A stretch of 16,037 nt of DNA from a virus (IMGVR_UViG_2571042372_000005), one strand, 5' to 3'. Counted from the stretch's first letter, positions 1-10,265 are shown. Numbers and translations: made by a program. The notes: generated from the letters alone by a model not told the origin.

Positions 1-384
1 GAAACGACATTTGTGCTGGATGCTCTGGAGCAGGCGTTATGGGCCCGTCGACCGTCCGGCACGGTCCATCACAGTGATAAAGGTTCTCAGTATGTATCGC
101 TGGCCTACACACAGCGGCTTAAGGAAGCCGGATTACTGGCATCAACAGGAAGTACAGGCGACTCGTATGACAACGCGATGGCGGAGAGCATCAATGGTCT
201 TTACAAAGCGGAGGTAATACACCGTAAGAGCTGGAAAAACCGTGCAGAAGTGGAACTGGCCACACTCACGTGGGTGGACTGGTATAACAATCGACGATTG
301 CTGGAAAGGCTGGGCCATACTCCTCCGGCAGAAGCAGAAAAAGCTTATTATGCTTCCATCGGAAACGATGATCTGGCAGCCTGA
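1..384 (+). CDS. IS629 OrfB transposase (DDE integrase core), 5'-partial at window edge
   Basis: Frame open from base 1 ([31 protein letters not shown]...), same C-terminus as the complete OrfB at 5282..6172; stop at 382..384. Confidence 0.9.
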   Translation, partial: ETTFVLDALEQALWARRPSGTVHHSDKGSQYVSLAYTQRLKEAGLLASTGSTGDSYDNAMAESINGLYKAEVIHRKSWKNRAEVELATLTWVDWYNNRRLLERLGHTPPAEAEKAYYASIGNDDLAA

Positions 385-426
385 GTTCACAGATAAAACA
401 CTCTCCAGGAAACCCGGGGCGGTTCA
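1..426 (+). mobile_element. IS629-like (IS3 family) insertion sequence, copy A, partial: only the 3' 426 bp lies in the window
   Basis: 1..426 matches the reverse complement of 5240..5665 with 2 synonymous substitutions in the stretches compared by eye; ends in the terminal inverted repeat ...CCAGGAAACCCGGGGCGGTTCA at 426. Confidence 0.9.
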
Positions 427-1193
427 ATACGGGAGAACTCATAACCGCAGTCATGACATCTGCCGGAATAGTTCGATTGAATTTGTTTTAGCGCCGGATA
501 CAGTTCGCGGAATAATGCCTGTGAGCGGTTGGCATAATCCCATAGCCATACAAGGCTGTTTGCTTCTTTTGCAGAAAGCTCGTTGGTTTTCTTCTCTTGT
601 TTGCCGATGAACTCACCTTCAAGCACTACCCTGTGGATGTACTCTACTGCTTGTGGTATCTGAGATGCATCAAGCTCTTCAATACTTTCCACATTGAAAC
701 GCTGATGAATCATTGCATAAGCTTCTGGGTACATTAGATGCTTTTTGCTGACTAGCATATTTACAGCATCACGAAGCGGAGTCCTGTCATCAACAGATGT
801 TTTCTTCCGTGCATTTGCTGCCTCTCCCTTTGTCCAGTAGTCATGCAGCACAGTAAAGCATTCTTCCTGGTACTGAATCAGTTTATCGCGGATGTCAGCA
901 CGAACTTTCTCAGGGTTGATGCTGAACAGCCATCCATTTAACTTCTTCAAAGGAAGGCAGAGTAGCTTACGAAGCTTACCATCAGCGGCAACCATGTTCA
1001 TATGAACACAGTTGAATTTGCTAATCTGCTTCATGAGTTTTGTTTGCTGCGTTGACCAGCTCATTCCGAGGTTTTCAACGATTGGCTTCATCGCAACATA
1101 TGCAACTCCGGCAGCCATGGCGGTGATAATTTGCTGACCGTTGAATGGCACGTAAGAGGTGTTCACTGCTTCTAAAATTGCTATACTATTCAT
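427..1193 (-). CDS. ant: Phage antirepressor (Ant-like), 3'-truncated by IS629 copy A
   Basis: ORF 387..1259 reads on into the IS inverted repeat, so the native stop is missing. Likely start is ATG at 1193 ([10 protein letters not shown]...) behind GGAGAAAA; an upstream in-frame ATG at 1259 is the alternative. Position downstream of an Arc-like gene matches P22 immI. Confidence 0.55.
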
Positions 1194-1425
1194 GTTGGTT
1201 TTTCTCCACGGATTTACCGACAACCGAAGCCCTGACTGTTCCAGCAGTTGGGGCTTCACTGTTTTGATTTCTTTGCCGCATCAAGCATCACTTCTGAAAA
1301 CGTGCGCTTGCCACTGAATACTCTTTCTCTTCTCAATTTTTCGTTCGTGCCAAATGATTCGCCATGAACAAAATTTGGTCTTAAAATGGTAATCGCAATC
1401 TCTTTGACTACTGCATCCAAGCGAA

Positions 1426-1578
1426 TCACACCGTTACCCCCTCTCTCTTCAGGCTGTCTATCAGGCGCTTGATAACCTCTGAGTTAAACGACCTGCACTC
1501 TTCCTTTGCCCTGCTACCGATAGCATCCTTTAACGACTGCGGCATCCTTACCAAAATCTTACTTATTTCTTTCTCCAT
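1426..1578 (-). CDS. arc: Arc-like ribbon-helix-helix repressor (50 aa)
   Basis: MEKEISKILVRMPQSLKDAIGSRAKEECRSFNSEVIKRLIDSLKREG resembles P22 Arc as recalled (RS-NSE core, KxEG tail); GGAGGG 5 nt before the ATG at 1578. Confidence 0.7.
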   Translation of the reverse strand: MEKEISKILVRMPQSLKDAIGSRAKEECRSFNSEVIKRLIDSLKREGVTV

Positions 1579-1692
1579 GTTACCCTCCACGCAAACAACT
1601 CTTTTCGAATACAAAAGATAGCAAAGTGAGTATATCTAGTCAAAATTTTTTTGCATACACTTTGCTATCAAATTGAATACCAAAGGTGTTAT
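1579..1692. promoter_or_regulatory. Divergent arc-ant / mnt control region with a 12-bp perfect inverted repeat
   Basis: GATAGCAAAGTG (1617..1628) and CACTTTGCTATC (1658..1669) separated by 29 bp; TTGACT -35-like hexamer on the - strand at 1638..1643; TTGCAT at 1650..1655 on the + strand. Confidence 0.5.
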
Positions 1693-1941
1693 ATGGCAAA
1701 GGGTGTGTCAATTTCTCCAACTACGGTAAGAATCCCTGAATCTTTACGCGAGGCTCTTGCTGTCAGAGCATCAAAAAATGGTCGCTCTGTTAACTCCGAG
1801 ATCGTCATGATTTTGCAAGCCGCGATTGATGAAGATAGGTCGCCAAAGTCAGTTGAGTCATTTGCTCAGCAAGAAGCTGATAAATTCAAAGAGGCGCTAC
1901 TTGAGACGCTAAAGACCATGTATGCTAAGGATGAAAAATAA
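1693..1941 (+). CDS. mnt: Mnt-like ribbon-helix-helix repressor (82 aa)
   Basis: VRIPESLREALAVRASKNGRSVNSEIVMILQAAI matches the Mnt/Arc RHH core (NGRS-NSE); C-terminus ...LKTMYAKDEK resembles P22 Mnt as recalled; divergent from arc. Confidence 0.75.
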   Translation: MAKGVSISPTTVRIPESLREALAVRASKNGRSVNSEIVMILQAAIDEDRSPKSVESFAQQEADKFKEALLETLKTMYAKDEK

Positions 1942-2477
1942 TGCTGCACACAATTCATTTCTTATGCCCTGTTAACACTGCCACTGTTGGGCAACTTCAG
2001 AACCACTGTCTCACCGCATTATCTCAAGGCGCAACTGAATTAAATATCCATATATCAAGTCAGGGAGGGGAAACTGCTGCTGGCTTTACTGCGTATAACT
2101 TTCTTAAGTCACTCCCTGTTACCGTTAGAACTCACAACATAAGCAATGTTGAATCCATAGCTAATATCGTTTTCCTGGCTGGCTCAGAACGTTTCGCAAA
2201 CCCATTATCAAGATTCCTGTTACATCCTCTATTATGGTGCTTTGCCTCCCCAGCCGCCGACCATGCCAGATTGAGAGAGTACGGGAAATGCCTCGATAAC
2301 GATCTTGATCGCTTCGTTGAGACGTTCAATATCGACATCGGAACCCATATTAGGTGGGCATCCCTGATAGCAGACTCGACCATTTTGGATGCTAACAAGG
2401 CTCTTGAGCATGGCATAATTAATTCCATAAAAACTGCAAGGCTGGCATCCAATCAGGCAAACTGGTGGGTTGTTTGA
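1941..2477 (+). CDS. ClpP-fold (S14/S49-like) serine peptidase homologue lacking the ClpP N-terminal region
   Basis: By-eye alignment to E. coli ClpP: IHISSQGGETAAGFTAY vs INSPGGVITAGMSIY; VESIAN Ser aligns with the GQAASMG catalytic Ser; RF-NPLSRFLLHP vs RFCLPNSRVMIHQP keeps the His; a later Asp (ADSTILD) is a candidate third residue. Start ATG overlaps the mnt stop (TAATG). Confidence 0.6.
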   Translation: MLHTIHFLCPVNTATVGQLQNHCLTALSQGATELNIHISSQGGETAAGFTAYNFLKSLPVTVRTHNISNVESIANIVFLAGSERFANPLSRFLLHPLLWCFASPAADHARLREYGKCLDNDLDRFVETFNIDIGTHIRWASLIADSTILDANKALEHGIINSIKTARLASNQANWWVV

Positions 2478-2503: not shown

Positions 2504-2527
2504 AAAAACCCACCTGACGGTGGGTTT
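2504..2527. terminator. Intrinsic terminator between convergent genes (possibly bidirectional)
   Basis: AAAAACCCACC-tgac-GGTGGGTTT hairpin; on the - strand it follows the 2526 stop and is followed by a T-run. Confidence 0.7.
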
Positions 2528-2975
2528 AGTCAAACATAGTGTTTCTAAAGTCTCTCGCATACCCTGCTAACACTCTCATTCTATTATGATTGTTAGCAGA
2601 CATGTGAGCTACAGGATGAAAAAGAGCAATCAATGAATACCTGTTCTCATCAAAAAGATTTTGTGCATAAACGAGAGCGGTATTGGATGTTTTATGCCAC
2701 TGCAACTTTTGCGGTGTGCTGATATCTGTGCCATTTTTTATTGGCTCAAATTTATTTTCACCAATTGCTAAATGAAGGTGCATAAGGCCTGCATCTTCAA
2801 TATCAGGAGGTCGATGATAAGAGGTGTCTCTGCCAAAATAGCTGGGCAACGTTCCCGTAGACTTGTAGATGATAAAATCATCTACAAGTGTTTGTTTTAA
2901 ATCAGGAAACTCAACAAAAACCGGGGAGAAAAAATAGTCAAAACTATCCTGATTATATTCCACGGTTACTTGCAT
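2526..2975 (-). CDS. yafO: YafO-family toxin homologue (149 aa)
   Basis: Matches E. coli YafO as recalled: DFIIYKSTGTLPSYFGRD vs DFISYKRDGVLPDIFGRD; HLHLAIGEN vs HIHLANENN; ALVYAQNLFDE...LIALFHPVAHMSANNHNRM vs HLVYCQGAFDE...LIAILKPEPHKLARDNNQM. GAGG SD; starts 8 nt after the upstream stop. Confidence 0.65.
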   Translation of the reverse strand: MQVTVEYNQDSFDYFFSPVFVEFPDLKQTLVDDFIIYKSTGTLPSYFGRDTSYHRPPDIEDAGLMHLHLAIGENKFEPIKNGTDISTPQKLQWHKTSNTALVYAQNLFDENRYSLIALFHPVAHMSANNHNRMRVLAGYARDFRNTMFD

Positions 2976-4093: not shown

Positions 4094-5239
4094 TTATTGA
4101 GCTTCTTTTTGTGATGCCTGTGCGACTCTGGTGAGCGATTGTGTGACCGTACTGATCGCTCTGTCATATGCTGTGCTACCTTTTGGCGTATTTGCCAGAC
4201 GTAACAAGGCATTTCGTATAACAGGGCTTTCGTATGCCTTCGCAGCTCCTCCTACGACACCAGCAGCAGGAACAACAAACGCAGCCGTTTTTAGCATCCC
4301 CGCTAATACTGCTGCGTTTATGATGCCACCACCAACTAACAATCCATAAAGCTGCTGACCATTTAAGTTTTGAACGTTCGCTTTTGCCGCGTGTCTTGTA
4401 TCGTTGAGGTATTTAATAACGCCGTCCAGTTCCTTTCCATGTACGCCTTTAAAGAAAGTTGCTGATTGCTTCCTGTTCCGGTGTAACGCATTAATAAACT
4501 TTTCAACACTAATATTTCCAGACGGATCAGTCGCCTTATCTACAGCATTCTGAACTATGGCTGCTCGTGCGTTTTGCCTACCATTGTCATCCAGAAGCCT
4601 GTAAAGCTGAGAACGTTCTGATGGGTTTTGGCTAAAAACGAGTTTTGTTACATCCTCAGGTGTAGCCTTGCCGCTGGCTATTGCCTTTTGAACGCGCGTT
4701 CTTCCCATCATGTCATTGAATCTAGCCCATGAGCGATCAACCCTAGACATATTGGCAGCTTCTTCTGAGCCTAGTTTTTGGGATACTGCTTTTTTCATAT
4801 CCGCTGTATATGCCTTGTAGACAATATCGCTGGCTTTCTGGAGCGTGTCTTTATCAACAGTCTCGTTTGAATTCATGAACCGCTTTCGAAGGTCAGTTCT
4901 GTTTTCTCTCGCCAGACGCAGGTCATTGGGTCCGCTGGTGATATCGTCTTTAAATTGCTGCAAGACTTTTACCGCGGCTCTATCCTGAGATTTGCCCGGG
5001 CGGCTTAACACGGCAATCTGATTGTCGATAGCTTTTACCGTGTTTGAGAGATCGACAGGGGTATCCCCCATAGCGTCAATTATGCGGTTATATCGCTTTC
5101 CTGCTGCCTCAATGAATTTTTGTTGCCCTTTAGTCGCAGATTCATAAAGCTGTTTATCAGAAATGCCACCCAGACCATCGCTAAATGTTCTGACTAAATT
5201 TTCTCGTGCTTGTTGTTGATTCAGCCGATTCTTACCGGT
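4094..5239 (-). CDS. 5'-truncated phage structural-type protein, possibly an ejection/internal virion protein; N-terminus replaced by IS629 copy B
   Basis: The reading frame is open from the IS junction at 5239 down to the stop at 4094, beyond the first ATG at 5071; C-terminal hydrophobic Gly/Ala-rich segment. Function is inferred from position only. Confidence 0.4.
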   Translation of the reverse strand, partial: TGKNRLNQQQARENLVRTFSDGLGGISDKQLYESATKGQQKFIEAAGKRYNRIIDAMGDTPVDLSNTVKAIDNQIAVLSRPGKSQDRAAVKVLQQFKDDITSGPNDLRLARENRTDLRKRFMNSNETVDKDTLQKASDIVYKAYTADMKKAVSQKLGSEEAANMSRVDRSWARFNDMMGRTRVQKAIASGKATPEDVTKLVFSQNPSERSQLYRLLDDNGRQNARAAIVQNAVDKATDPSGNISVEKFINALHRNRKQSATFFKGVHGKELDGVIKYLNDTRHAAKANVQNLNGQQLYGLLVGGGIINAAVLAGMLKTAAFVVPAAGVVGGAAKAYESPVIRNALLRLANTPKGSTAYDRAISTVTQSLTRVAQASQKEAQ

Positions 5240-5265
5240 TGAACCGCCCCGGGTTTCCTGGAGAG
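5240..5265. repeat. IS629 terminal inverted repeat (orfB-proximal end)
   Basis: TGAACCGCCCCGGGTTTCCTGGAGAG; partner at 6524..6549. Confidence 0.8.
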
Positions 5266-5281
5266 TGTTTTATCTGTGAAC

Positions 5282-6172
5282 TCAGGCTGCCAGATCATCG
5301 TTTCCGATGGAAGCATAATAAGCTTTTTCTGCTTCTGCCGGAGGAGTATGGCCCAGCCTTTCCAGCAATCGTCGATTGTTATACCAGTCCACCCACGTGA
5401 GTGTGGCCAGTTCCACTTCTGCACGGTTTTTCCAGCTCTTACGGTGTATTACCTCCGCTTTGTAAAGACCATTGATGCTCTCCGCCATCGCGTTGTCATA
5501 CGAGTCGCCTGTACTTCCTGTTGATGCCAGTAATCCGGCTTCCTTAAGCCGCTGTGTGTAGGCCAGCGATACATACTGAGAACCTTTATCACTGTGATGG
5601 ACCGTGCCGGACGGTCGACGGGCCCATAACGCCTGCTCCAGTGCATCCAGCACGAATGTCGTTTCCATGGACGATGAGACCCGCCACCCCACGATGTATC
5701 CGGCAAACACATCAATGATGAACGCCACATAGACGAAGCCCCGCCATGTGCTGACGTAAGTAAAATCAGCCACCCACAGCTGGTCAGGTCGTTCTGCCAC
5801 GAACTGACGGTTTACGCGGTCGCCTGCGGCAACGGCTTTCCGGCTGATGGTCGTACGGACCTTTTTACCCCGGAGAACACCGGCAAGTCCCATAACCGCC
5901 ATGAGACGTGCCACAGTGCATCTGGCCACTCTGATACCTTCCCGTAACAACTGACGCCAGACTTTACGCACACCGTATACCTTGTGATTTTCATCGTATA
6001 CGCGCTGTATCTCTTTCTTCAGCCAGTCATCGCGCTGCGCACGGGCACTGCGTTTATCCGGATGATGTCGCTGTTGCTGACAGTGGTAATACGTTGACGG
6101 GGCAATATGCAGTTCGCTGCATAGCGGTCCGACCCCGTACTGCTCACGCAGCTTATCCAGCAGTGGCATCAT
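5282..6172 (-). CDS. IS629 OrfB transposase (DDE integrase core)
   Basis: 296-aa ORF in the -1 frame relative to orfA; IS3-family catalytic-core-like sequence ([10 protein letters not shown]...[15 protein letters not shown]). Confidence 0.9.
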
Positions 6173-6495
6173 TTTTTCCAGAGGCGGTCGAACTCCGCCT
6201 TCGCAAAATAAGCGGAAGCCTGGCGAAGGATATCGTTACTGCGGCGCAGTTCACGATTTTCACGTTCCAGCTCTTTCAGACGCTGACGTTCAGCGGTGGT
6301 GAGCCCTCCATCACCGCCCCCGGTATCCCGCTCATGCTGGCGAACCCAGACACGCAGAGTCTCCGGCGTACAGCCAATCTTTGGAGCAATGGAACAAATT
6401 GTCGCCCATTGTGAGTCATATTCGCTCTGACTTTCCAGAACCATACGGACTGCCCGTTGACGGACTTCGGGGGAAAAACGAGTATTTTTAGTCAT
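6169..6495 (-). CDS. IS629 OrfA (HTH/leucine-zipper transposase N-terminal protein)
   Basis: 108 aa, [21 protein letters not shown]...; ends in the A-run GGAAAAAATGA that overlaps the orfB start, the usual site of -1 frameshifting in this family. Confidence 0.9.
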
Positions 6496-6523
6496 CCTGT
6501 TTACCTCTTTCTCAGGAAGTTTA

Positions 6524-6549
6524 GTCTCCAGGATTCCCGGGGCGGTTCA
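6524..6549. repeat. IS629 terminal inverted repeat (orfA-proximal end)
   Basis: Reverse complement reads TGAACCGCCCCGGGAATCCTGGAGAC. Confidence 0.8.
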
Positions 6550-7705
6550 TGATGATTGAGTCTGCGTCCTGTTCAATGCTTCCTGAATCACGCAAATCTG
6601 CGTTTGTCGGGCGTTTGTTTGGTCGCTTCTCAACATCGCGTGAAAGCTGACTCAGGGAAATAACCGGTGTTTTCAGGTCTTTCGCCATCGCCTTCAGGCT
6701 TCCGGAGATGTGAGCAATTGCGAGGTCGTTGCGGTCTGCTTTCGGCTTCTCAATCAGGCCAAGATAATCCGCCATGATGAGTGAGAGGTTTGGATTTTCC
6801 TGTTTGTGCCGTTCTGCGATTGAGCGTATTTCTTCGACCGATAATCGCGAGGCATCGACTACCCATACATCCAAATCTGCAAGCTGACTCATGCCGTTAG
6901 CAACACGTGCCCAGCCCTCGTCATCCATCGATGCAGGATTTCGCAGTACGCTAACCGACATCCTCCCGGCGTTGGCAATGCTTCGCTCTGCAATCTGCAA
7001 TGCGCTCATTTCCATTGAGAAAATCAATACCCCGCGCCGGACGTCAGAACCAGGAATAACGCGGCTTGCAACGCCTTCGGCAATCTTCAGCGCCAGTTCG
7101 GTTTTCCCCATACCAGGACGAGCAGCGATTATCACCAGGTCTTCCGCGTTCATCCCTCCGGTGATGGCATCAAGTTCTTCGATTCCGGTCTTCAGGGTAT
7201 CGGACTCTTCTCCGTTCCTCAGACGCCTGTCAAGCGTGTCAGTGTAGTCGGTGATGATTTCCCCTAACCGTACAGGTTTAACCTCGTCACGGGGCTTTCT
7301 GATGGCTGAGAGACGTTTTACAAGTTCATCCATCGCCTGACTCGATGCGTCGATGGTTCCGCTTTGGATTGGTTCACGCATTTCATCCATGATTTCCAGC
7401 ACCAGACGGCGGTGATAGTTATCCGCGACCATTCCGGCATATCCCTTCAGGTTTGCGGCGCTCGGGCAGTTTTTGCTGGTCATCAGGATTGACGTGAAAT
7501 GCTCCTCTCCGCACGCCTCGGCAACCATCAGCGCGTCGATTAGGTTTCTGTTTCTCGCCTGCTTCCGGATAACCTCGAAGGCTTTCCGGTAGAGCGGAAT
7601 TGAAAACGCTTCCGGCTCCAGCGTTGCAAGAACGTCACTGGCGGTTGGAGTTAATCCACCAATCAGCAGGCCACCGATAACGCTCGCTTCGATATCCTGT
7701 CTCAT
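6550..7705 (-). CDS. DnaB-family replicative helicase (P22 gene-12-like), 3'-truncated by IS629 copy B
   Basis: Walker [12 protein letters not shown]; DnaB C-terminal motifs [36 protein letters not shown], after which the frame runs into the IS inverted repeat; about 45-60 C-terminal residues missing by comparison with E. coli DnaB. Start ATG overlaps the upstream stop (ATGA). Confidence 0.85.
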
Positions 7706-8649
7706 GCAATCCCCCTGTCTGCAAACTTCCCTTCCCGAACTCCCGTTAACGAGTCTTCTCTCAGCAGGTAATCAAAATCAGCCGTCCAGCCCGTGTCGTT
7801 GTCTCCGAAGTAAAACGGCTTGGCCTGATGCACAAACGCCCTGACATACGCTCTGAAACCGTCCACGTTTGGCGTTTTCAGTTGCGGGATGATTTTCTTC
7901 AGGCGGCGTTTTCGTTTCTCGTTGACCGCAACAGCGTGTGGCAGTCTGTCACCGACTTCGGTGTTGTAGGCGTTCAGGAAGGATTCGTAGTCGATTCGTT
8001 CTGCCTTGCGACGTTCAGGTTTAACCTGCCCATCGCCTCCCCCATTGGGGGGTAGGGGGGTATTATTTATATTCTTGTTAATACCTTCTTGTTCATGATG
8101 TGCGGTTGTTTGTGCGGCTTCATGTGCGCTTTCATGTGCGGCATGTACGCTGAAAGCCGCGCTATTGCTGGCTTCATCATGTGCGGCATCATGTGCGGTT
8201 GTTTGTGCGGCTTCATGTGCGGGTAAATTGTCCATTTTTTGAGCATATTCATGGTAATTTGTGATGGTTATCACACGGCCTTTTTGCTTCTCTCCATCAA
8301 TGGAGATCATCCCCTCTTTCACAAAAACCTGAAGCATCCGCTCAACCTGATCACGGCTTGCTGGCTTGCCATGTCTGTCGCATAACTGAAGACCTAAATC
8401 AGCTGCTGTCACAACCAGTTGACCGGGTTGCAGATGCCATTCATGACCTTTGAAATTCGCTTTGTATGGCTTTCTGGCGGCATTCAGGAGAAGGTTTTCC
8501 CACAGGGTGCGAAGATAAACATCTTTCGCCCATGACTGTTTCAGAATGCTCCGGTACAACGGAATGTAACCAGTTTTCTGGTTCTCCATCCTGTTGCTCC
8601 TGCGCTCGTGTGCGGCGCTGAAATCGTAGATTTTTGCTGTATTGCTCAT
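7702..8649 (-). CDS. Replication initiator (lambda O / P22 gene-18-like) containing the origin iterons
   Basis: N-terminus [10 protein letters not shown]... recalls lambda O (MTNTAKILNF...); internal reiterated [10 protein letters not shown] peptide corresponds to DNA iterons; translationally coupled to the helicase. Confidence 0.7.
8055..8222. repeat. Putative phage replication origin: two clusters of 12-bp-period iterons (8094..8222) with an adjacent AT-rich stretch (8055..8093)
   Basis: (C/T)ATGTGCGG repeated about 9 times; a 35-bp unit is near-perfectly duplicated (8094..8128 and 8187..8221); the AT-rich stretch lies downstream in the direction of O transcription, as in lambda ori. Confidence 0.6.
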
Positions 8650-8651
8650 AA

Positions 8652-8924
8652 CTACCTGCCTTGACGAAAGACCTTAAGAACATCGTTAAACTGACTTACG
8701 GATATGTCTTCTTTGAGAAGCTTTTCCAGAAATGCGTTTGGAATGAACGTATATCCCTCCTCTTTTGGTAGAGACGGGAGCAACGCCCTCGCCTCAGCCT
8801 TCAGAAGCTCAGTTCTGGCAACTTTCACAAAAGAGATTTGAGTTCTTTCATCAATGGAACGAAGGAAGCGCAAACGCTTAGCTTCTTTGTGTGTATCAGG
8901 TGGATTAAAGCCTTTGTTTCGCAT
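8652..8924 (-). CDS. Hypothetical protein (90 aa) between cII and the initiator gene
   Basis: ATG at 8924 with GAGG SD; the ORF-track 181-aa version overlaps cII in another frame and is probably an over-extension. Confidence 0.5.
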   Translation of the reverse strand: MRNKGFNPPDTHKEAKRLRFLRSIDERTQISFVKVARTELLKAEARALLPSLPKEEGYTFIPNAFLEKLLKEDISVSQFNDVLKVFRQGR

Positions 8925-8946
8925 ATAATTACCTCGTTGGATGTTG

Positions 8947-9240
8947 TTAAAATTCCATTTGTATTTGATCAGAACGCTCGGTTGCCGCCGGGCGTTTTTT
9001 ATTGGTGAGAATCGAAGCAACTTGTCGTGCCAATCGAGCCATGTCGTCGTCGACAACACCCCATTCAAGAACAGCAAGCAGCATTGAGAACTTTGGAATC
9101 CAGTCCCTCTTCCACCTGCTGATCTGCGACTTATCAACGCCCACAGCTTCCGCTGTCTTCTCAGTTCCAAGCATTGCGATTTTGTTAAGCAACGCACTCT
9201 CGATTCTTAGAGCCTCGTTGCGTTTGTTTGCACGAACCAT
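8947..9240 (-). CDS. cII: Transcriptional activator CII (97 aa), lambda-type
   Basis: MVRANKRNEALRIESALLNKIAMLGTEKTAEAVGVDKSQISRWKRDWIPKF...QIQMEF matches lambda CII as recalled, essentially residue for residue; upstream AAGGAAATACTTACATATG context also lambda-like. Confidence 0.9.
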   Translation of the reverse strand: MVRANKRNEALRIESALLNKIAMLGTEKTAEAVGVDKSQISRWKRDWIPKFSMLLAVLEWGVVDDDMARLARQVASILTNKKRPAATERSDQIQMEF

Positions 9241-9297
9241 ATGTAAGTATTTCCTTAACAAATAAGAAGTTATGCGCATCAACTTATGCGCGTTGTA

Positions 9298-9341
9298 TTC
9301 CCGCATTTCGGCGGGAATGAGGACCATGACTGTTAAAGAGC
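9298..9341 (-). promoter_or_regulatory. nutR (boxA + boxB hairpin)
   Basis: On the - strand: boxA-like GCTCTTTAACA (9331..9341), then boxB hairpin TTCCCGC-cgaaat-GCGGGAA (9298..9317); the same elements recur at nutL. Confidence 0.6.
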
Positions 9342-9348
9342 AATTTGC

Positions 9349-9534
9349 TTATGCCGCTTTGCGGTAAGCGCTTTCTTGATACTTCAGGGCGCCAGCTGTA
9401 ACGACTTCCAGTCGATAGGCGTCTTTCTCTGGGATGACTTCCTTCCACTGAGAGACTGCTGCGTCGCTAATGCCTAACGCTTTAGCTACAGCACGCTGGG
9501 TTCCGAAGTGGTCGATAACATCTTTCTTGTACAT
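9349..9534 (-). CDS. cro: Cro-like HTH repressor (61 aa)
   Basis: HTH QRAVAKALGISDAAVSQW; divergent from cI across an operator region; GGAG SD. Confidence 0.8.
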   Translation of the reverse strand: MYKKDVIDHFGTQRAVAKALGISDAAVSQWKEVIPEKDAYRLEVVTAGALKYQESAYRKAA

Positions 9535-9614
9535 AGACTCGCTCCGAAATTAAAGAACACTTAAATTATCCACTAAAGGAATCTTAAGTCAAGTTTATTT
9601 AAGATGTCTTAACT
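9535..9614. promoter_or_regulatory. oR / pR / pRM divergent control region
   Basis: pR on the - strand: -35 TTGACT (9587..9592), 16-17 bp spacer, -10 GATAAT (9565..9570). Recurrent operator-like motifs with a TTAAG/TTAAAT core (ACTTAAATT, ATCTTAAGT, TTTAAGAT). Confidence 0.6.
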
Positions 9615-10265
9615 ATGAAAACTCAATTGATGGGAGAGCGCATTCGCGCTCGGAGAAAAGAACTCAAGATCAGGCAGGCCGCACTTGGAAAGATGGTCGG
9701 CGTGTCTAATGTTGCCATATCTCAGTGGGAACGCTCTGAGACAGAGCCAAATGGAGAGAATCTTCTCGCCCTGGCTAATGCGTTGAAGTGTTCCCCTGAC
9801 TATCTGATGAAAGGAGAGGAAAGTCTTTCAAACATTGCCTATCACAGTAGGCATGATCCAAGAGGGTCATACCCTCTGATTAGCTGGGTGAGCGCAGGAT
9901 GCTGGATGGAAGCTGTAGAACCATATCATAAGCGTGCAATAGATAACTGGTACGATACAACCGTAGACTGTTCAGAAGATTCGTTTTGGTTGGACGTGAA
10001 GGGAGACTCAATGACGGCTCCGGCCGGTCTCAGTATCCCTGAAGGAATGATAATACTCGTCGATCCTGAAGTAGAGCCGCGTAACGGGAAACTGGTAGTT
10101 GCAAAGCTCGAAGGAGAAAACGAGGCAACTTTCAAGAAGTTAGTTATTGATGCAGGCAGGAAGTTTCTAAAACCACTTAACCCACAATATCCGATGATCG
10201 AGATCAACGGAAACTGCAAAATCATCGGCGTAGTTGTCGATGCAAAACTAGCAAACCTTCCATAA
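9615..10265 (+). CDS. cI: CI-type prophage repressor (HTH_XRE N-terminal domain + S24 LexA-like autopeptidase domain)
   Basis: HTH LKIRQAALGKMVGVSNVAISQWE; S24 Ser in GDSM and Lys in KKLV; 216 aa. Confidence 0.9.
   Translation: MKTQLMGERIRARRKELKIRQAALGKMVGVSNVAISQWERSETEPNGENLLALANALKCSPDYLMKGEESLSNIAYHSRHDPRGSYPLISWVSAGCWMEAVEPYHKRAIDNWYDTTVDCSEDSFWLDVKGDSMTAPAGLSIPEGMIILVDPEVEPRNGKLVVAKLEGENEATFKKLVIDAGRKFLKPLNPQYPMIEINGNCKIIGVVVDAKLANLP

What the first reader, a model, noticed from the sequence alone, without database searches (positions are those of the whole stretch)
1579..1692. 12-bp perfect inverted repeat spaced 29 bp in the arc/mnt divergent promoter region
GATAGCAAAGTG and CACTTTGCTATC flank the candidate promoter hexamers for both arc-ant and mnt. 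The arms are longer and further apart than a single RHH operator, so they may be two operator sites bound cooperatively or a looping element.
Basis: seen in the sequence. Interest (0 to 1): 0.4.

Follow-up and report, generated by a model that had tools for sequence, protein, structure and literature searches.

The report
Twin repressor sites in phage switch
The 12-base inverted repeat is real and is most likely a pair of repressor-binding sites, one on each of two back-to-back promoters, in a so far unstudied variant of the classic phage P22 antirepressor (immI) switch carried by a decayed E. coli prophage.

Summary
Confirmed: GATAGCAAAGTG (1617-1628) and CACTTTGCTATC (1658-1669) are perfectly complementary with 29 nt between them. 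That is about 0.07 expected per random 16-kb window and 8e-4 per random 114-bp spacer.

The locus is a complete P22-type immI region: an Mnt-like gene, an Arc-like gene, sar RNA and ant. It lies in an IS-riddled P22-like E. coli prophage remnant.

The left arm lies in the spacer and -10 of a strong leftward Pant-like promoter. The right arm overlaps every candidate mnt promoter.

In eight operator types from related phages the two sites stay mirror images, although their sequence changes on both sides. Their centres are always 36 bp apart. Each arm is the well-kept outer half plus core of an Omnt-like 8-N-8 unit.

P22 has one compact palindrome covering both overlapping promoters. Here the promoters stand back to back and the site is present twice.

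Best reading: twin operators that let one ribbon-helix-helix repressor shut both operons by blocking RNA polymerase. Which repressor reads them (Mnt-like, Arc-like or both) is not settled.

Looping between the arms is not supported, because 36 bp is 3.4 helical turns. This is a new variant of a known kind, of modest interest.

The parts
1617..1628 (.). Left arm GATAGCAAAGTG. On the Pant sense (minus) strand it reads CACTTTGC-TATC, i.e. 8 nt of spacer including a TG at -15/-14, plus the first 4 nt of the -10 hexamer.
1658..1669 (.). Right arm CACTTTGCTATC, the mirror copy. It overlaps every candidate mnt promoter element.
1617..1633 (.). Inferred left operator unit O_L, GATAGCAA-A-GTGAGTAT (8-N-8, centre 1625). 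The outer half is good; the inner half keeps only GTG (local symmetry 2/8).
   Evidence: by analogy with the palindromic units of types S, J, K and D
1653..1669 (.). Inferred right operator unit O_R, GCATACAC-T-TTGCTATC (centre 1661; local symmetry 3/8).
1615..1643 (-). Pant-like promoter: -35 TTGACT (1643-1638), 17-nt spacer, TG, -10 TATCTT (1620-1615). Predicted start near 1608. It drives arc, orf57 and ant.
   Evidence: 12-15 bits in all types; 21/29 identical to the P22 Pant core
1644..1652 (.). A/T tract (AAATTTTTTT) between the -35 regions. Part of the block AGTCAAARTTTTTTTG, conserved in types W, E, D, S and S2. Possibly an UP-like element of Pant (inference).
1651..1679 (+). Candidate mnt promoter elements, all weak. 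(a) -35-like TTGCAT 1651-1656 with TTGAAT/TGAATA at 1673-1679. (b) TGcTATCAA 1663-1671, the mirror image of Pant's extended -10. (c) The invariant TACACT 1656-1661.
   Evidence: sequence reading; mirror of Pant
1600..1618 (.). Pseudo-palindrome TCTTTTCGA-A-TACAAAAGA (7 of 9 pairs), centre 1609, over the predicted Pant start. Same place as P22 Omnt and as the clear palindromes TGTGAATCACA (type E) and TGTGATATCACA (type D), 16 bp from the O_L centre. Candidate second operator, weakly supported.
   Evidence: sequence reading
1677..1688 (+). Arm-like third copy ATACCAAAGGTG over the mnt ribosome-binding site, with one extra base. It is a clean copy in type E (TTATCACGGTG) and type S (CTACAGCGTG). 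In this window it is not above chance on its own. It is also part of the direct repeat GAATAC(A/C)AAAG at 1607-1617 and 1675-1685.
1429..1578 (-). Arc-like ribbon-helix-helix gene (50 aa). Recognition strand S-K-I-L-V-R-M-P.
1693..1941 (+). Mnt-like ribbon-helix-helix gene (82 aa) with an Mnt-type C-terminal helix region. Recognition strand S-P-T-T-V-R-I-P.
1256..1429 (-). orf57 (PHROG 17642, unknown function) between arc and sar/ant. Absent from P22.
1194..1260 (+). sar antisense RNA (Rfam RF00262, 83.9 bits, E 2e-17).
387..1193 (-). ant antirepressor gene (P22_AR_N and P22_AR_C domains). It departs from the 300-aa homologue after about residue 256, at an IS transposase fragment.

Best explanation
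The two arms are twin operator sites of the immI switch of a P22-like prophage.

The region holds two back-to-back divergent promoters. One is a strong leftward Pant-like promoter for arc-orf57-ant. The other is a weak rightward promoter for mnt and the ClpP-like gene.

Each arm is the well-conserved outer half plus the CA(A/C)-N-GTG core of a roughly 17-bp Omnt-like unit. Each lies over the -10 and spacer of one promoter. The inverted orientation and the fixed spacing therefore follow from the mirror arrangement of the promoters.

A ribbon-helix-helix repressor encoded next door binds each unit on its own, as a dimer of dimers, and keeps RNA polymerase from starting at both promoters. This does with two copies what the single Oarc does in P22, where the two promoters overlap completely.

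Shown: the repeat, the genes, the Pant-like promoter, the conserved and co-varying symmetry, the constant 36-bp spacing, and the homology with the P22 Pant/Oarc core.

Inferred: that protein binds there, the position of the mnt promoter, and which protein binds. My split is Mnt-like about 45%, Arc-like about 30%, both about 25%.
For: Repeat real and non-random.

Complete immI gene set around it: Arc-like and Mnt-like RHH genes, P22-type Ant, sar RNA.

Left arm lies inside TTGACT-17-TATCTT with TG, the only strong promoter call in the region, and that promoter is conserved in all types.

Fifteen distinct sequences of five operator types were aligned:
- 86% of arm positions are complementary, against 72% after shuffling (0 of 500 shuffles reach it) and 13-59% when the partner is slid.
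- 5 of 12 positions changed on both sides.
- The one position that is usually not complementary is the centre N of CAC-N-GTG, as expected for a protein dyad.

Unrelated contigs with the same central 16-mer have 1-7 of 12 matches at the arm positions, plus one low-complexity A/T stretch with 9.

Unit centres are 36 bp apart in eight types whose central sequences differ.

In types S, J, K and D the units are clear 8-N-8 palindromes like P22 Omnt.

The Pant core is 21/29 identical to P22, and the stretch 1618-1638 is 14/21 identical to Oarc.

In P22, Arc at one operator represses both divergent overlapping promoters, and RHH proteins bind at least as a dimer of dimers (PMC2724298).

For the Mnt-like assignment:
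- The arm word GATATCA(A/C) is nearly constant in types W, E, D and Proteus. Their Mnt strands share P-x-[T/S/G]-[V/L]-R, while their Arc strands differ widely (KILVR, DCIVR, KLQLR).
- The core resembles the Omnt core CCAC-G-GTGG.
Against: No binding or transcription data exist for this operator type. The literature held here says only the P22 version has been studied (PMC2629481).

In this window the local symmetry of each 8-N-8 unit is poor (2/8 and 3/8). A symmetric dimer of dimers would have only one good half-site per unit.

Seven of the 12 arm bases (TGnTATC) could be kept by promoter function alone.

The mnt promoter is weak by every scan and cannot be placed. The claim that the right arm blocks it rests on its overlap with all candidates.

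Identical arms would make a maintenance repressor shut off its own gene as tightly as ant.

The assignment to Mnt-like or Arc-like is contradictory:
- Position and sequence homology with P22 point to Arc.
- Constancy of the arm word across different Arc strands points to Mnt.
- The extra copies in this window are not above chance.
Confidence: 0.6

Rival explanations
1. Split operator with bridging. The two identical outer half-sites are the two halves of one operator. A single Mnt-like tetramer, or two repressors touching each other, holds both arms at once. This bends or wraps the intervening 29 bp, which carries the -35 regions and the A/T tract, so one complex shuts both promoters cooperatively.
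For: In this window the long-range symmetry is perfect (12/12) while the local symmetry of each unit is the lowest of all types (2/8, 3/8). The Mnt-like protein keeps the Mnt-type C-terminal region, matched to residue 74 of 1mnt. The arm spacing is invariant in eight types. An A4T7 tract lies between the arms.
Against: Where the units are palindromes and their dyads are unambiguous, the centres are 36 bp apart. That is 3.4 turns, so the sites face nearly opposite sides. A loop of about 40 bp is far below what free DNA allows. Mirror-image promoter geometry explains the constant spacing without any contact. Most copies of this same operator type have unequal arms (11/12).
Confidence: 0.08
2. 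Promoter by-product. The repeat only reflects two mirror-image extended -10 promoters (TGnTATC...) derived from a duplicated promoter module, and no repressor reads the arms. The real operators lie elsewhere, for example at the 1600-1618 palindrome and the segment next to the Pant -35.
For: TGcTATC makes up 7 of the 12 bases in both arms, and the scan flags the TG for Pant. Arm position 5 (the n of TGn) is the freely polymorphic one. The segment between the left arm and the -35 is the same in types W and E, which share the Arc strand, and differs in D and S.
Against: CAC/GTG at the inner end of both arms is invariant in types W, E, D, S and S2. It lies at -20 to -18, where sigma-70 promoters have no element. 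Type S keeps the symmetry with a different -10 start and no TGn geometry. Copies of the same word occur away from -10 positions, in the mnt leader and at the Pant start, in types E, S, J and K. No good promoter exists on the mnt side that would demand the sequence.
Confidence: 0.12
3. Nucleic-acid hairpin. The arms pair in single-stranded DNA (cruciform) or in read-through late RNA on the minus strand, where the stem is followed by TTTTGTATT. The hairpin would act as a terminator, pause or processing site before ant and tailspike.
For: The folded DNA strand gives -12.5 kcal/mol, z = -4.1 against shuffles. A T-rich run follows the stem on the minus strand. In P22, late transcription reads through this region and is thought to be modulated there (PMC2629481).
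Against: Both arms lie upstream of the predicted start sites of both local promoters. The loop is 29 nt, the stem has 5 G-C pairs, and no terminator-like site is called. In relatives the stem would carry a mismatch at arm position 9 in 9 of 15 sequences, exactly at the dyad centre of each site. That fits protein sites and not pairing. No Rfam family matches there.
Confidence: 0.04
4. Chance repeat in an A/T-rich spacer.
For: The spacer is 32% GC and full of short A/T words. Looser copies of the arm word are not enriched in the window (6 found, 5.3 expected).
Against: 8e-4 per random spacer. The symmetry is conserved with changes on both sides and with fixed spacing across phage types.
Confidence: 0.01

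Closest known systems
Phage P22 immI control region: Pant/Pmnt with the Arc operator (Oarc)
   Same: Same gene set and order (mnt, divergent promoters, arc, sar, ant). A repressor site lies between -35 and -10 of Pant and runs into the -10. The Pant core is 21/29 identical and Oarc versus 1618-1638 is 14/21 identical. There is a symmetric element whose two halves each touch the -10 of one promoter. One site design is able to shut both operons (PMC2724298).
   Different: P22 has one compact palindrome (17-nt arms, 4 nt apart) inside two fully overlapping promoters, with -35 outside and -10 inside. Here the promoters are back to back, with -10 outside and -35 inside. Predicted starts are about 70 bp apart if the mnt promoter mirrors Pant, and the site is present twice, 41 bp start to start. 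There are no inverted TAGA boxes 5 bp apart. The Arc strand is K-I-L-V-R against Q-F-N-L-R in P22.
Phage P22 Mnt operator (Omnt, AGGTCCAC-G-GTGGACCT)
   Same: 8-N-8 design with a CAC-N-GTG core, seen clearly in relatives: GCCTACAC-T-GTGTAGCA in type S and CACTACAT-T-ATGTAGAT in type K. The Mnt-like protein has the same domain layout.
   Different: Omnt is one perfect palindrome placed over the Pant start. The arms here lie over the -10 and spacer of both promoters, and in this window only the outer half-site is good (CAA-A-GTG; local symmetry 2-3 of 8). The Omnt position itself is occupied by another element (1600-1618).
AmrZ at amrZ1 (Pseudomonas; Arc-family dimer of dimers)
   Same: The Arc-like protein matches AmrZ (E 1e-5) and has the same kind of strand: Lys, hydrophobic, Arg (K7-L9-R11 against K18-V20-R22). 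The AmrZ site TGGC-AAAAC-GCC has an A-tract between half-sites, a little like TAGC-AAAGT-G in the arm (PMC3325190).
   Different: The second AmrZ-style half-site (GCC-like, 5 bp away) is absent from the arms. This resemblance is a lead only.
Omega repressor heptads (WATCACW) of pSM19035 (recalled from memory, not tested)
   Same: Relatives of type E, D and Proteus build their sites from (A/T)ATCAC(A/C) words in direct and inverted order. The Mnt-like strand T-V-R resembles the omega T-V-R strand.
   Different: The words here are about 11 bp apart or arranged around a central base, not contiguous 7-bp arrays. In this window the word is ATAGCAA, not ATCAC.

Membership tests
P22-type immI (immunity I) region | Divergent mnt and arc-ant operons encoding two ribbon-helix-helix repressors | tested here: met
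   ORFs at 1429-1578(-) and 1693-1941(+). Pfam Arc PF03869 at 5e-12 and 1e-10. PDB hits to Arc (1arr family) and Mnt (1mnt, 2e-6)..
P22-type immI (immunity I) region | P22-type antirepressor gene downstream of arc | tested here: met
   P22_AR_N 4e-45 and P22_AR_C 3e-22. The gene is cut short by an IS.
P22-type immI (immunity I) region | sar antisense RNA just upstream of the ant start | tested here: met
   Rfam RF00262, 83.9 bits against a gathering score of 43, at 1194-1260(+).
P22-type immI (immunity I) region | Position inside the late operon of a P22-like phage, between DNA-transfer genes and tailspike | tested here: met
   Relatives L001 and L004 read tailspike-ant-orf-arc/mnt...DNA transfer protein. 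In the window a DNA-transfer fragment lies at 4094-5071, and the tailspike side is replaced by an IS.
P22-type immI (immunity I) region | Fully overlapping Pant and Pmnt sharing one Oarc in a common spacer | tested here: not met
   Pant -35 and -10 lie at 1643-1615. No plus-strand promoter shares that spacer. The symmetric element is split, with 29 nt between the arms, against 4 nt in P22.
Arc-type operator (as P22 Oarc) | 21-bp site with inverted 4-bp boxes (TAGA/TCTA) separated by 5 bp | tested here: not met
   No TAGA/TCTA pair and no box-N5-box symmetry around either arm (sequence reading). Box rule taken from PMC2724298.
Arc-type operator (as P22 Oarc) | Lies between -35 and -10 of Pant | tested here: met
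   The left arm plus the adjoining 9 nt fill the Pant spacer. 14/21 identical to Oarc in the gap-free register.
Mnt-type operator (as P22 Omnt) | Two inverted 8-bp half-sites around one central base, with a CAC-N-GTG core | tested here: inconclusive
   Met in relatives (6/8 symmetric in types S, K and D). In the window only 2/8 and 3/8, with core CAA-A-GTG.
Mnt-type operator (as P22 Omnt) | Bound by the Mnt tetramer | not testable with these tools
   Needs EMSA or footprinting.
Intrinsic terminator or regulatory hairpin | G+C-rich stem, short loop, T run, located in a transcript; pairing kept by compensatory change | tested here: not met
   29-nt loop and no terminator call. Upstream of both predicted starts. 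The central stem position is mismatched in 9 of 15 relatives.

The most novel reading that the evidence does not exclude
The arms are the two halves of one split operator. A single Mnt-like tetramer, or an Arc-Mnt assembly, grips both identical outer half-sites across 41 bp and wraps the A/T-tract DNA that carries both -35 regions. One small repressor complex would then lock two divergent promoters in a micro-loop. This window's type, with perfect long-range symmetry and almost no local symmetry, would be the extreme form of that design.
Probability: 0.08. Interest if true: 0.7.

Novelty: new variant of a known kind. Interest (0 to 1): 0.35.

Why it matters
P22 immI, Arc and Mnt are textbook models for beta-sheet DNA recognition and for promoter competition. 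As far as the held literature shows, only the P22 version has been studied.

The comparison here shows that many P22-like prophages of E. coli and relatives use a different wiring:
- About 115 of 5,426 complete E. coli genomes carry this type. The type in O157:H7 is a sister.
- The promoters stand back to back.
- The operator is present two to four times at fixed spacing.
- In several types the Arc and Mnt recognition strands are nearly identical, so both should compete for the same sites.

That gives a natural series of matched repressor and operator variants. The series can be used to test recognition rules of ribbon-helix-helix proteins and how antirepressor release is timed. For this window alone it is a sensible, expected regulatory element in a decayed prophage, not a surprise.

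Tried and rejected
1. Assigning the arms to one repressor by co-variation.
- First comparison, types W and E: same Arc strand, different Mnt, arms differ CAA against CAC. This pointed to Mnt.
- Adding types D, Proteus, G and J showed that CAA also occurs with an E-like Mnt (Proteus type 2). It also showed that types G and J share the Mnt strand but differ in the arm word. The simple correlation fails, and I kept only a weak lean to Mnt.

2. Looking for natural recombinants with the same Arc and other Mnt types. A scan with the Arc alignment found none beyond W and E.

3. Extra copies of the arm word in the window. With up to 2 mismatches there are 6 hits against 5.3 expected. The copy over the mnt start codon is therefore not supported on its own.

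4. Placing the mnt promoter. The consensus scan finds none. A weight-matrix scan gives only weak, non-conserved candidates. I list three and do not choose.

5. A 16-bp pseudo-palindrome TGAGTATATCTAGTCA (1627-1642, 6/8) as an Arc site. It fits types W and E and not D or S, but it is not above chance. Kept only as a remark.

6. Box-N5-box (Arc, CopG, AmrZ style) symmetry around the arms: none.

7. Primary papers on Mnt quaternary structure and Arc/Mnt specificity (PMC30133, PMC286564) are not held.

8. The genome-contig scan gave only five loci, which were of little use.

Full report
OBSERVATION. The window holds GATAGCAAAGTG at 1617-1628 and its exact reverse complement CACTTTGCTATC at 1658-1669, with 29 nt between them. 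The reported span 1579-1692 is the whole spacer between the arc-like start (1578, minus strand) and the mnt-like start (1693). Perfect 12-mer inverted repeats with a gap of 60 nt or less are expected 0.07 times per random window of this composition. In random 114-bp spacers of the local 32% GC they occur in 0.08% of trials. The repeat does not extend beyond 12 bp here.

WHAT SURROUNDS IT.
- On the left, on the minus strand: a 50-aa Arc-family gene (Pfam Arc 5e-12; PDB pArc, AmrZ, Arc), a 57-aa ORF of unknown function, and a P22-type antirepressor gene.
- On the right: an 82-aa gene with an Arc-type N-terminus and an Mnt-type C-terminus (best PDB hit 1mnt, 2e-6).
- Rfam finds the P22 antisense RNA sar at 1194-1260 with 83.9 bits.

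This is therefore a complete P22-type immI region. The DNA is 100% identical to E. coli ATCC 11775 and 98% identical to the Lederbergvirus phage phiv205-1. About 115 of 5,426 complete E. coli genomes carry this type at 90% identity or more.

The prophage in the window is a remnant. The ant gene departs from its 300-aa homologue after about residue 256, at an IS transposase fragment. A second transposase joins a DNA-transfer gene fragment to replication genes.

PROMOTERS. The only strong sigma-70 match is on the minus strand: TTGACT (1643-1638), 17 nt, TATCTT (1620-1615), preceded by TG. A weight-matrix scan gives it 12-15 bits in every related type. Read on that strand, the left arm is CACTTTGC-TATC, which is eight spacer bases including the TG plus the first four bases of the -10.

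The mnt side has no good promoter in any type. There are three candidates:
- TTGCAT (1651-1656) with a poor -10 16-17 nt downstream.
- TGcTATCAA (1663-1671), the mirror image of Pant's extended -10.
- The invariant TACACT (1656-1661).

The right arm overlaps all three. A weak mnt promoter agrees with P22, where the two promoters overlap and so should compete for polymerase (overlap: PMC2724298; competition is my own knowledge).

COMPARATIVE EVIDENCE. I collected the arc-mnt spacer from phage, prophage and IMG/VR contigs.

Five operator types share the central block AGTCAAARTTTTTTTG. It holds the Pant -35 and an A/T tract. Their arms differ:
- Type W (this one): GATA[G/T]CAAAGTG.
- Type E (phage 611R6, O157:H7 EDL933): [C/G]ATATCAC-N-GTG.
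- Type D: AGTATCATCGTG / GATATCACAGTG.
- Types S and S2: TACTACAC-N-GTG / TGCTACACAGTG.

On 15 distinct sequences, 86% of arm positions are complementary. That compares with 72% after shuffling (0 of 500 shuffles reach it) and 13-59% when the partner is slid by 1-3 columns. Five of the 12 positions changed on both sides. Unrelated contigs that share the central 16-mer by chance have 1-7 of 12 matches at the arm positions, plus one low-complexity A/T stretch with 9.

The one position that is usually not complementary (9 of 15 sequences) is the base between CAC and GTG. That is the centre of a small dyad inside each arm. It is what a protein site predicts, and it is what a hairpin would avoid.

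With three more types whose central sequence differs (J, K and Proteus type 2), the distance between the two dyad centres is 36 bp in all eight.

ANATOMY. In types S, J, K and D the sites are plain 8-N-8 palindromes of the P22 Omnt kind. Examples are GCCTACAC-T-GTGTAGCA and CACTACAT-T-ATGTAGAT, each 6 of 8 symmetric.

Seen this way, each 12-bp arm of the window is the outer half-site (GATAGCAA), the central base, and the first three bases (GTG) of the inner half. The inner halves (GTGAGTAT; GCATACAC) are poor copies. Local symmetry is only 2/8 and 3/8, the lowest of all types, while the long-range symmetry is the highest (12/12).

Within type W, position 5 of the arm is G or T. Only about 15 of 67 fetched copies are perfect.

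Relatives carry further copies of the same word:
- In the mnt leader: type E TTATCACGGTG, type S CTACAGCGTG.
- At the Pant start: type S GCTACACCGTG; types J and K CTACATAATGTAG; types E and D TGTGA(A/TA)TCACA.

In the window the corresponding elements are ATACCAAAGGTG (1677-1688) and the pseudo-palindrome TCTTTTCGAATACAAAAGA (1600-1618, 7 of 9 pairs, centre 16 bp from the left unit as in types E and D). Neither is above chance on its own.

COMPARISON WITH P22. Without gaps, the stretch from the Pant -10 to the -35 is 21/29 identical to P22. The 21 bp at 1618-1638 are 14/21 identical to Oarc. The left arm is therefore the positional and sequence homologue of one half of the Oarc region.

The architecture differs, however. 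P22 and type 5 prophages have one compact palindrome (17-18-nt arms, 3-4 nt apart) that contains both promoters, with each -10 next to the other promoter's -35. Here, and in types E and S, the arms are 29 nt apart. The -35 regions lie inside and the -10 regions outside. If the mnt promoter mirrors Pant, the starts are about 70 bp apart. The inverted TAGA boxes of Oarc are absent.

In P22, Arc bound to one operator represses both promoters (PMC2724298). With the promoters pulled apart, the same logic needs two sites in mirror orientation. That is what is seen.

WHICH REPRESSOR. This is not settled.

For the Arc-like protein:
- The homology with Oarc.
- The P22 logic of one protein shutting both promoters.
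- The segment between the left arm and the -35 is the same in types W and E, which share the Arc strand ([K/R]ILVRMP), and differs in types D and S.

For the Mnt-like protein:
- The 8-N-8 design with a CAC-N-GTG core resembles Omnt.
- The arm word GATATCA(A/C) is nearly constant in types W, E, D and Proteus. Their Mnt strands all read P-x-[T/S/G]-[V/L]-R, whereas their Arc strands differ widely (KILVR, DCIVR, K[L/F]QLR).

In types S, S2, G, H and J the Arc and Mnt N-terminal arms and strands are almost the same (for example VRDIAPLGIRIP and ARDISPLGIRIP). The same holds for type K as far as it was read. Both proteins should therefore read the same sites there.

An early, simpler correlation (CAA with the type W Mnt) broke down when more types were added. 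I put Mnt-like at about 45%, Arc-like at about 30%, and both at about 25%.

The Arc-like strand K-I-L-V-R resembles that of AmrZ (K-F-V-V-R). AmrZ binds DNA as a dimer of dimers with a hydrophobic residue in the middle contact position (PMC3325190). The leucine at the place of P22 Arc Asn11 therefore does not argue against DNA binding.

LOOPING OR COOPERATION BETWEEN THE ARMS. This is answered by each arm belonging to its own unit. The dyads are 36 bp apart, which is 3.4 turns, so bound proteins would face nearly opposite sides. About 40 bp is far too short for a free loop. The constant spacing is explained by the promoter geometry. I keep bridging as the most novel reading not excluded (8%), because this type combines perfect long-range symmetry with very weak local symmetry.

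OTHER RIVALS.
- Promoter elements alone (TGnTATC is 7 of the 12 bases) could explain part of the repeat. They do not explain the invariant CAC/GTG at -20 to -18, the symmetry in type S with a different -10, or the copies away from -10 positions. I give this 12%.
- A hairpin is unlikely. It folds at -12.5 kcal/mol, z -4.1. But the arms lie upstream of both predicted starts, the loop is 29 nt, no terminator is called, and relatives would have a central mismatch. I give this 4%.
- Chance is excluded by the comparative data.

NOVELTY AND LIMITS. Reviews of P22-like genomes state that only the P22 version of this region has been studied (PMC2629481). Recent E. coli work notes non-identical mnt-arc-ant loci with unexpected expression: no detectable mnt RNA in a Kapi1 lysogen, and a viable mnt deletion in Gally. 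I did not determine which operator type those phages carry.

The split, repeated-operator architecture is thus a new variant of a known kind. No binding or transcription was measured.

Noticed in passing
window 1194-1260 (+): Full-length match to the P22 antisense RNA sar (RF00262, 83.9 bits). It lies between orf57 and the ant ATG at 1193, so ant translation control by antisense RNA is probably retained.
   Followed up: partly
window 13-384 and 387-1193: The antirepressor gene departs from its 300-aa homologue after about residue 256, next to an IS transposase fragment (rve domains). Ant is probably truncated or inactive in this prophage.
   Followed up: yes
window 4094-10265: The prophage is a remnant. 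The C-terminal part of a DNA-transfer protein (4094-5071) is followed by a transposase (5282-6172). Then come early genes: a DnaB-like helicase, an O-like initiator and a CI-like repressor at 9615-10265. An IS-mediated deletion appears to have removed most late genes.
   Followed up: partly
window 1939-2477 (+): The mnt stop overlaps the ATG of a ClpP-family protease-like gene (TAATG). That gene would be co-expressed with the maintenance repressor from the mnt promoter, which is odd cargo for a lysogenic operon. Phage records annotate it as 'head maturation protease'.
   Followed up: no
window 1256-1429 (-): A 57-aa ORF (PHROG 17642, unknown function) is inserted between arc and sar/ant. It is absent from P22, and a 73-aa counterpart exists in the O157-type loci.
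   Followed up: no
window 2526-2975 (-) and 2861-2889: A YafO-family toxin-like gene lies next to the immI region. Inside it is the only other long perfect inverted repeat of the window (13-bp arms, 3-nt loop).
   Followed up: no
window 1429-1578 (-), residues 7-11: The Arc-like protein has Leu where P22 Arc has Asn11. This is the residue whose N11L change gives the fold-switching Arc mutants (from memory). Its strand K-I-L-V-R looks like that of AmrZ (K-F-V-V-R).
   Followed up: partly
loci L295, L193, L299-L304, L309-L311: In several related immI types the Arc and Mnt proteins have almost identical N-terminal arms and recognition strands, and all operator copies share one word. A dimeric and a tetrameric repressor would then compete for the same sites, unlike in P22.
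   Followed up: partly
locus L076 (IMGVR_UViG_2675903675_000003), about 857-1443: A P22-like arc faces two tandem mnt paralogues, one P22-like and one of the window's family. The operator at the Omnt position is a hybrid (TGTATCAC-G-GTGGTCTT) with one half-site of each kind.
   Followed up: no
locus L297 (E. coli ST131 strain 4993), 439-590: An Arc gene keeps the N-terminal strand MKVKTLRMP of its operator type, while the rest of the protein is replaced by a diverged sequence. This is a natural swap that keeps recognition strand and operator together.
   Followed up: no
window 1607-1617 and 1675-1685: Direct repeat GAATACAAAAG / GAATACCAAAG (10 of 11), one copy at the predicted Pant start and one over the mnt ribosome-binding site. 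It is not part of the inverted repeat and is unexplained.
   Followed up: partly
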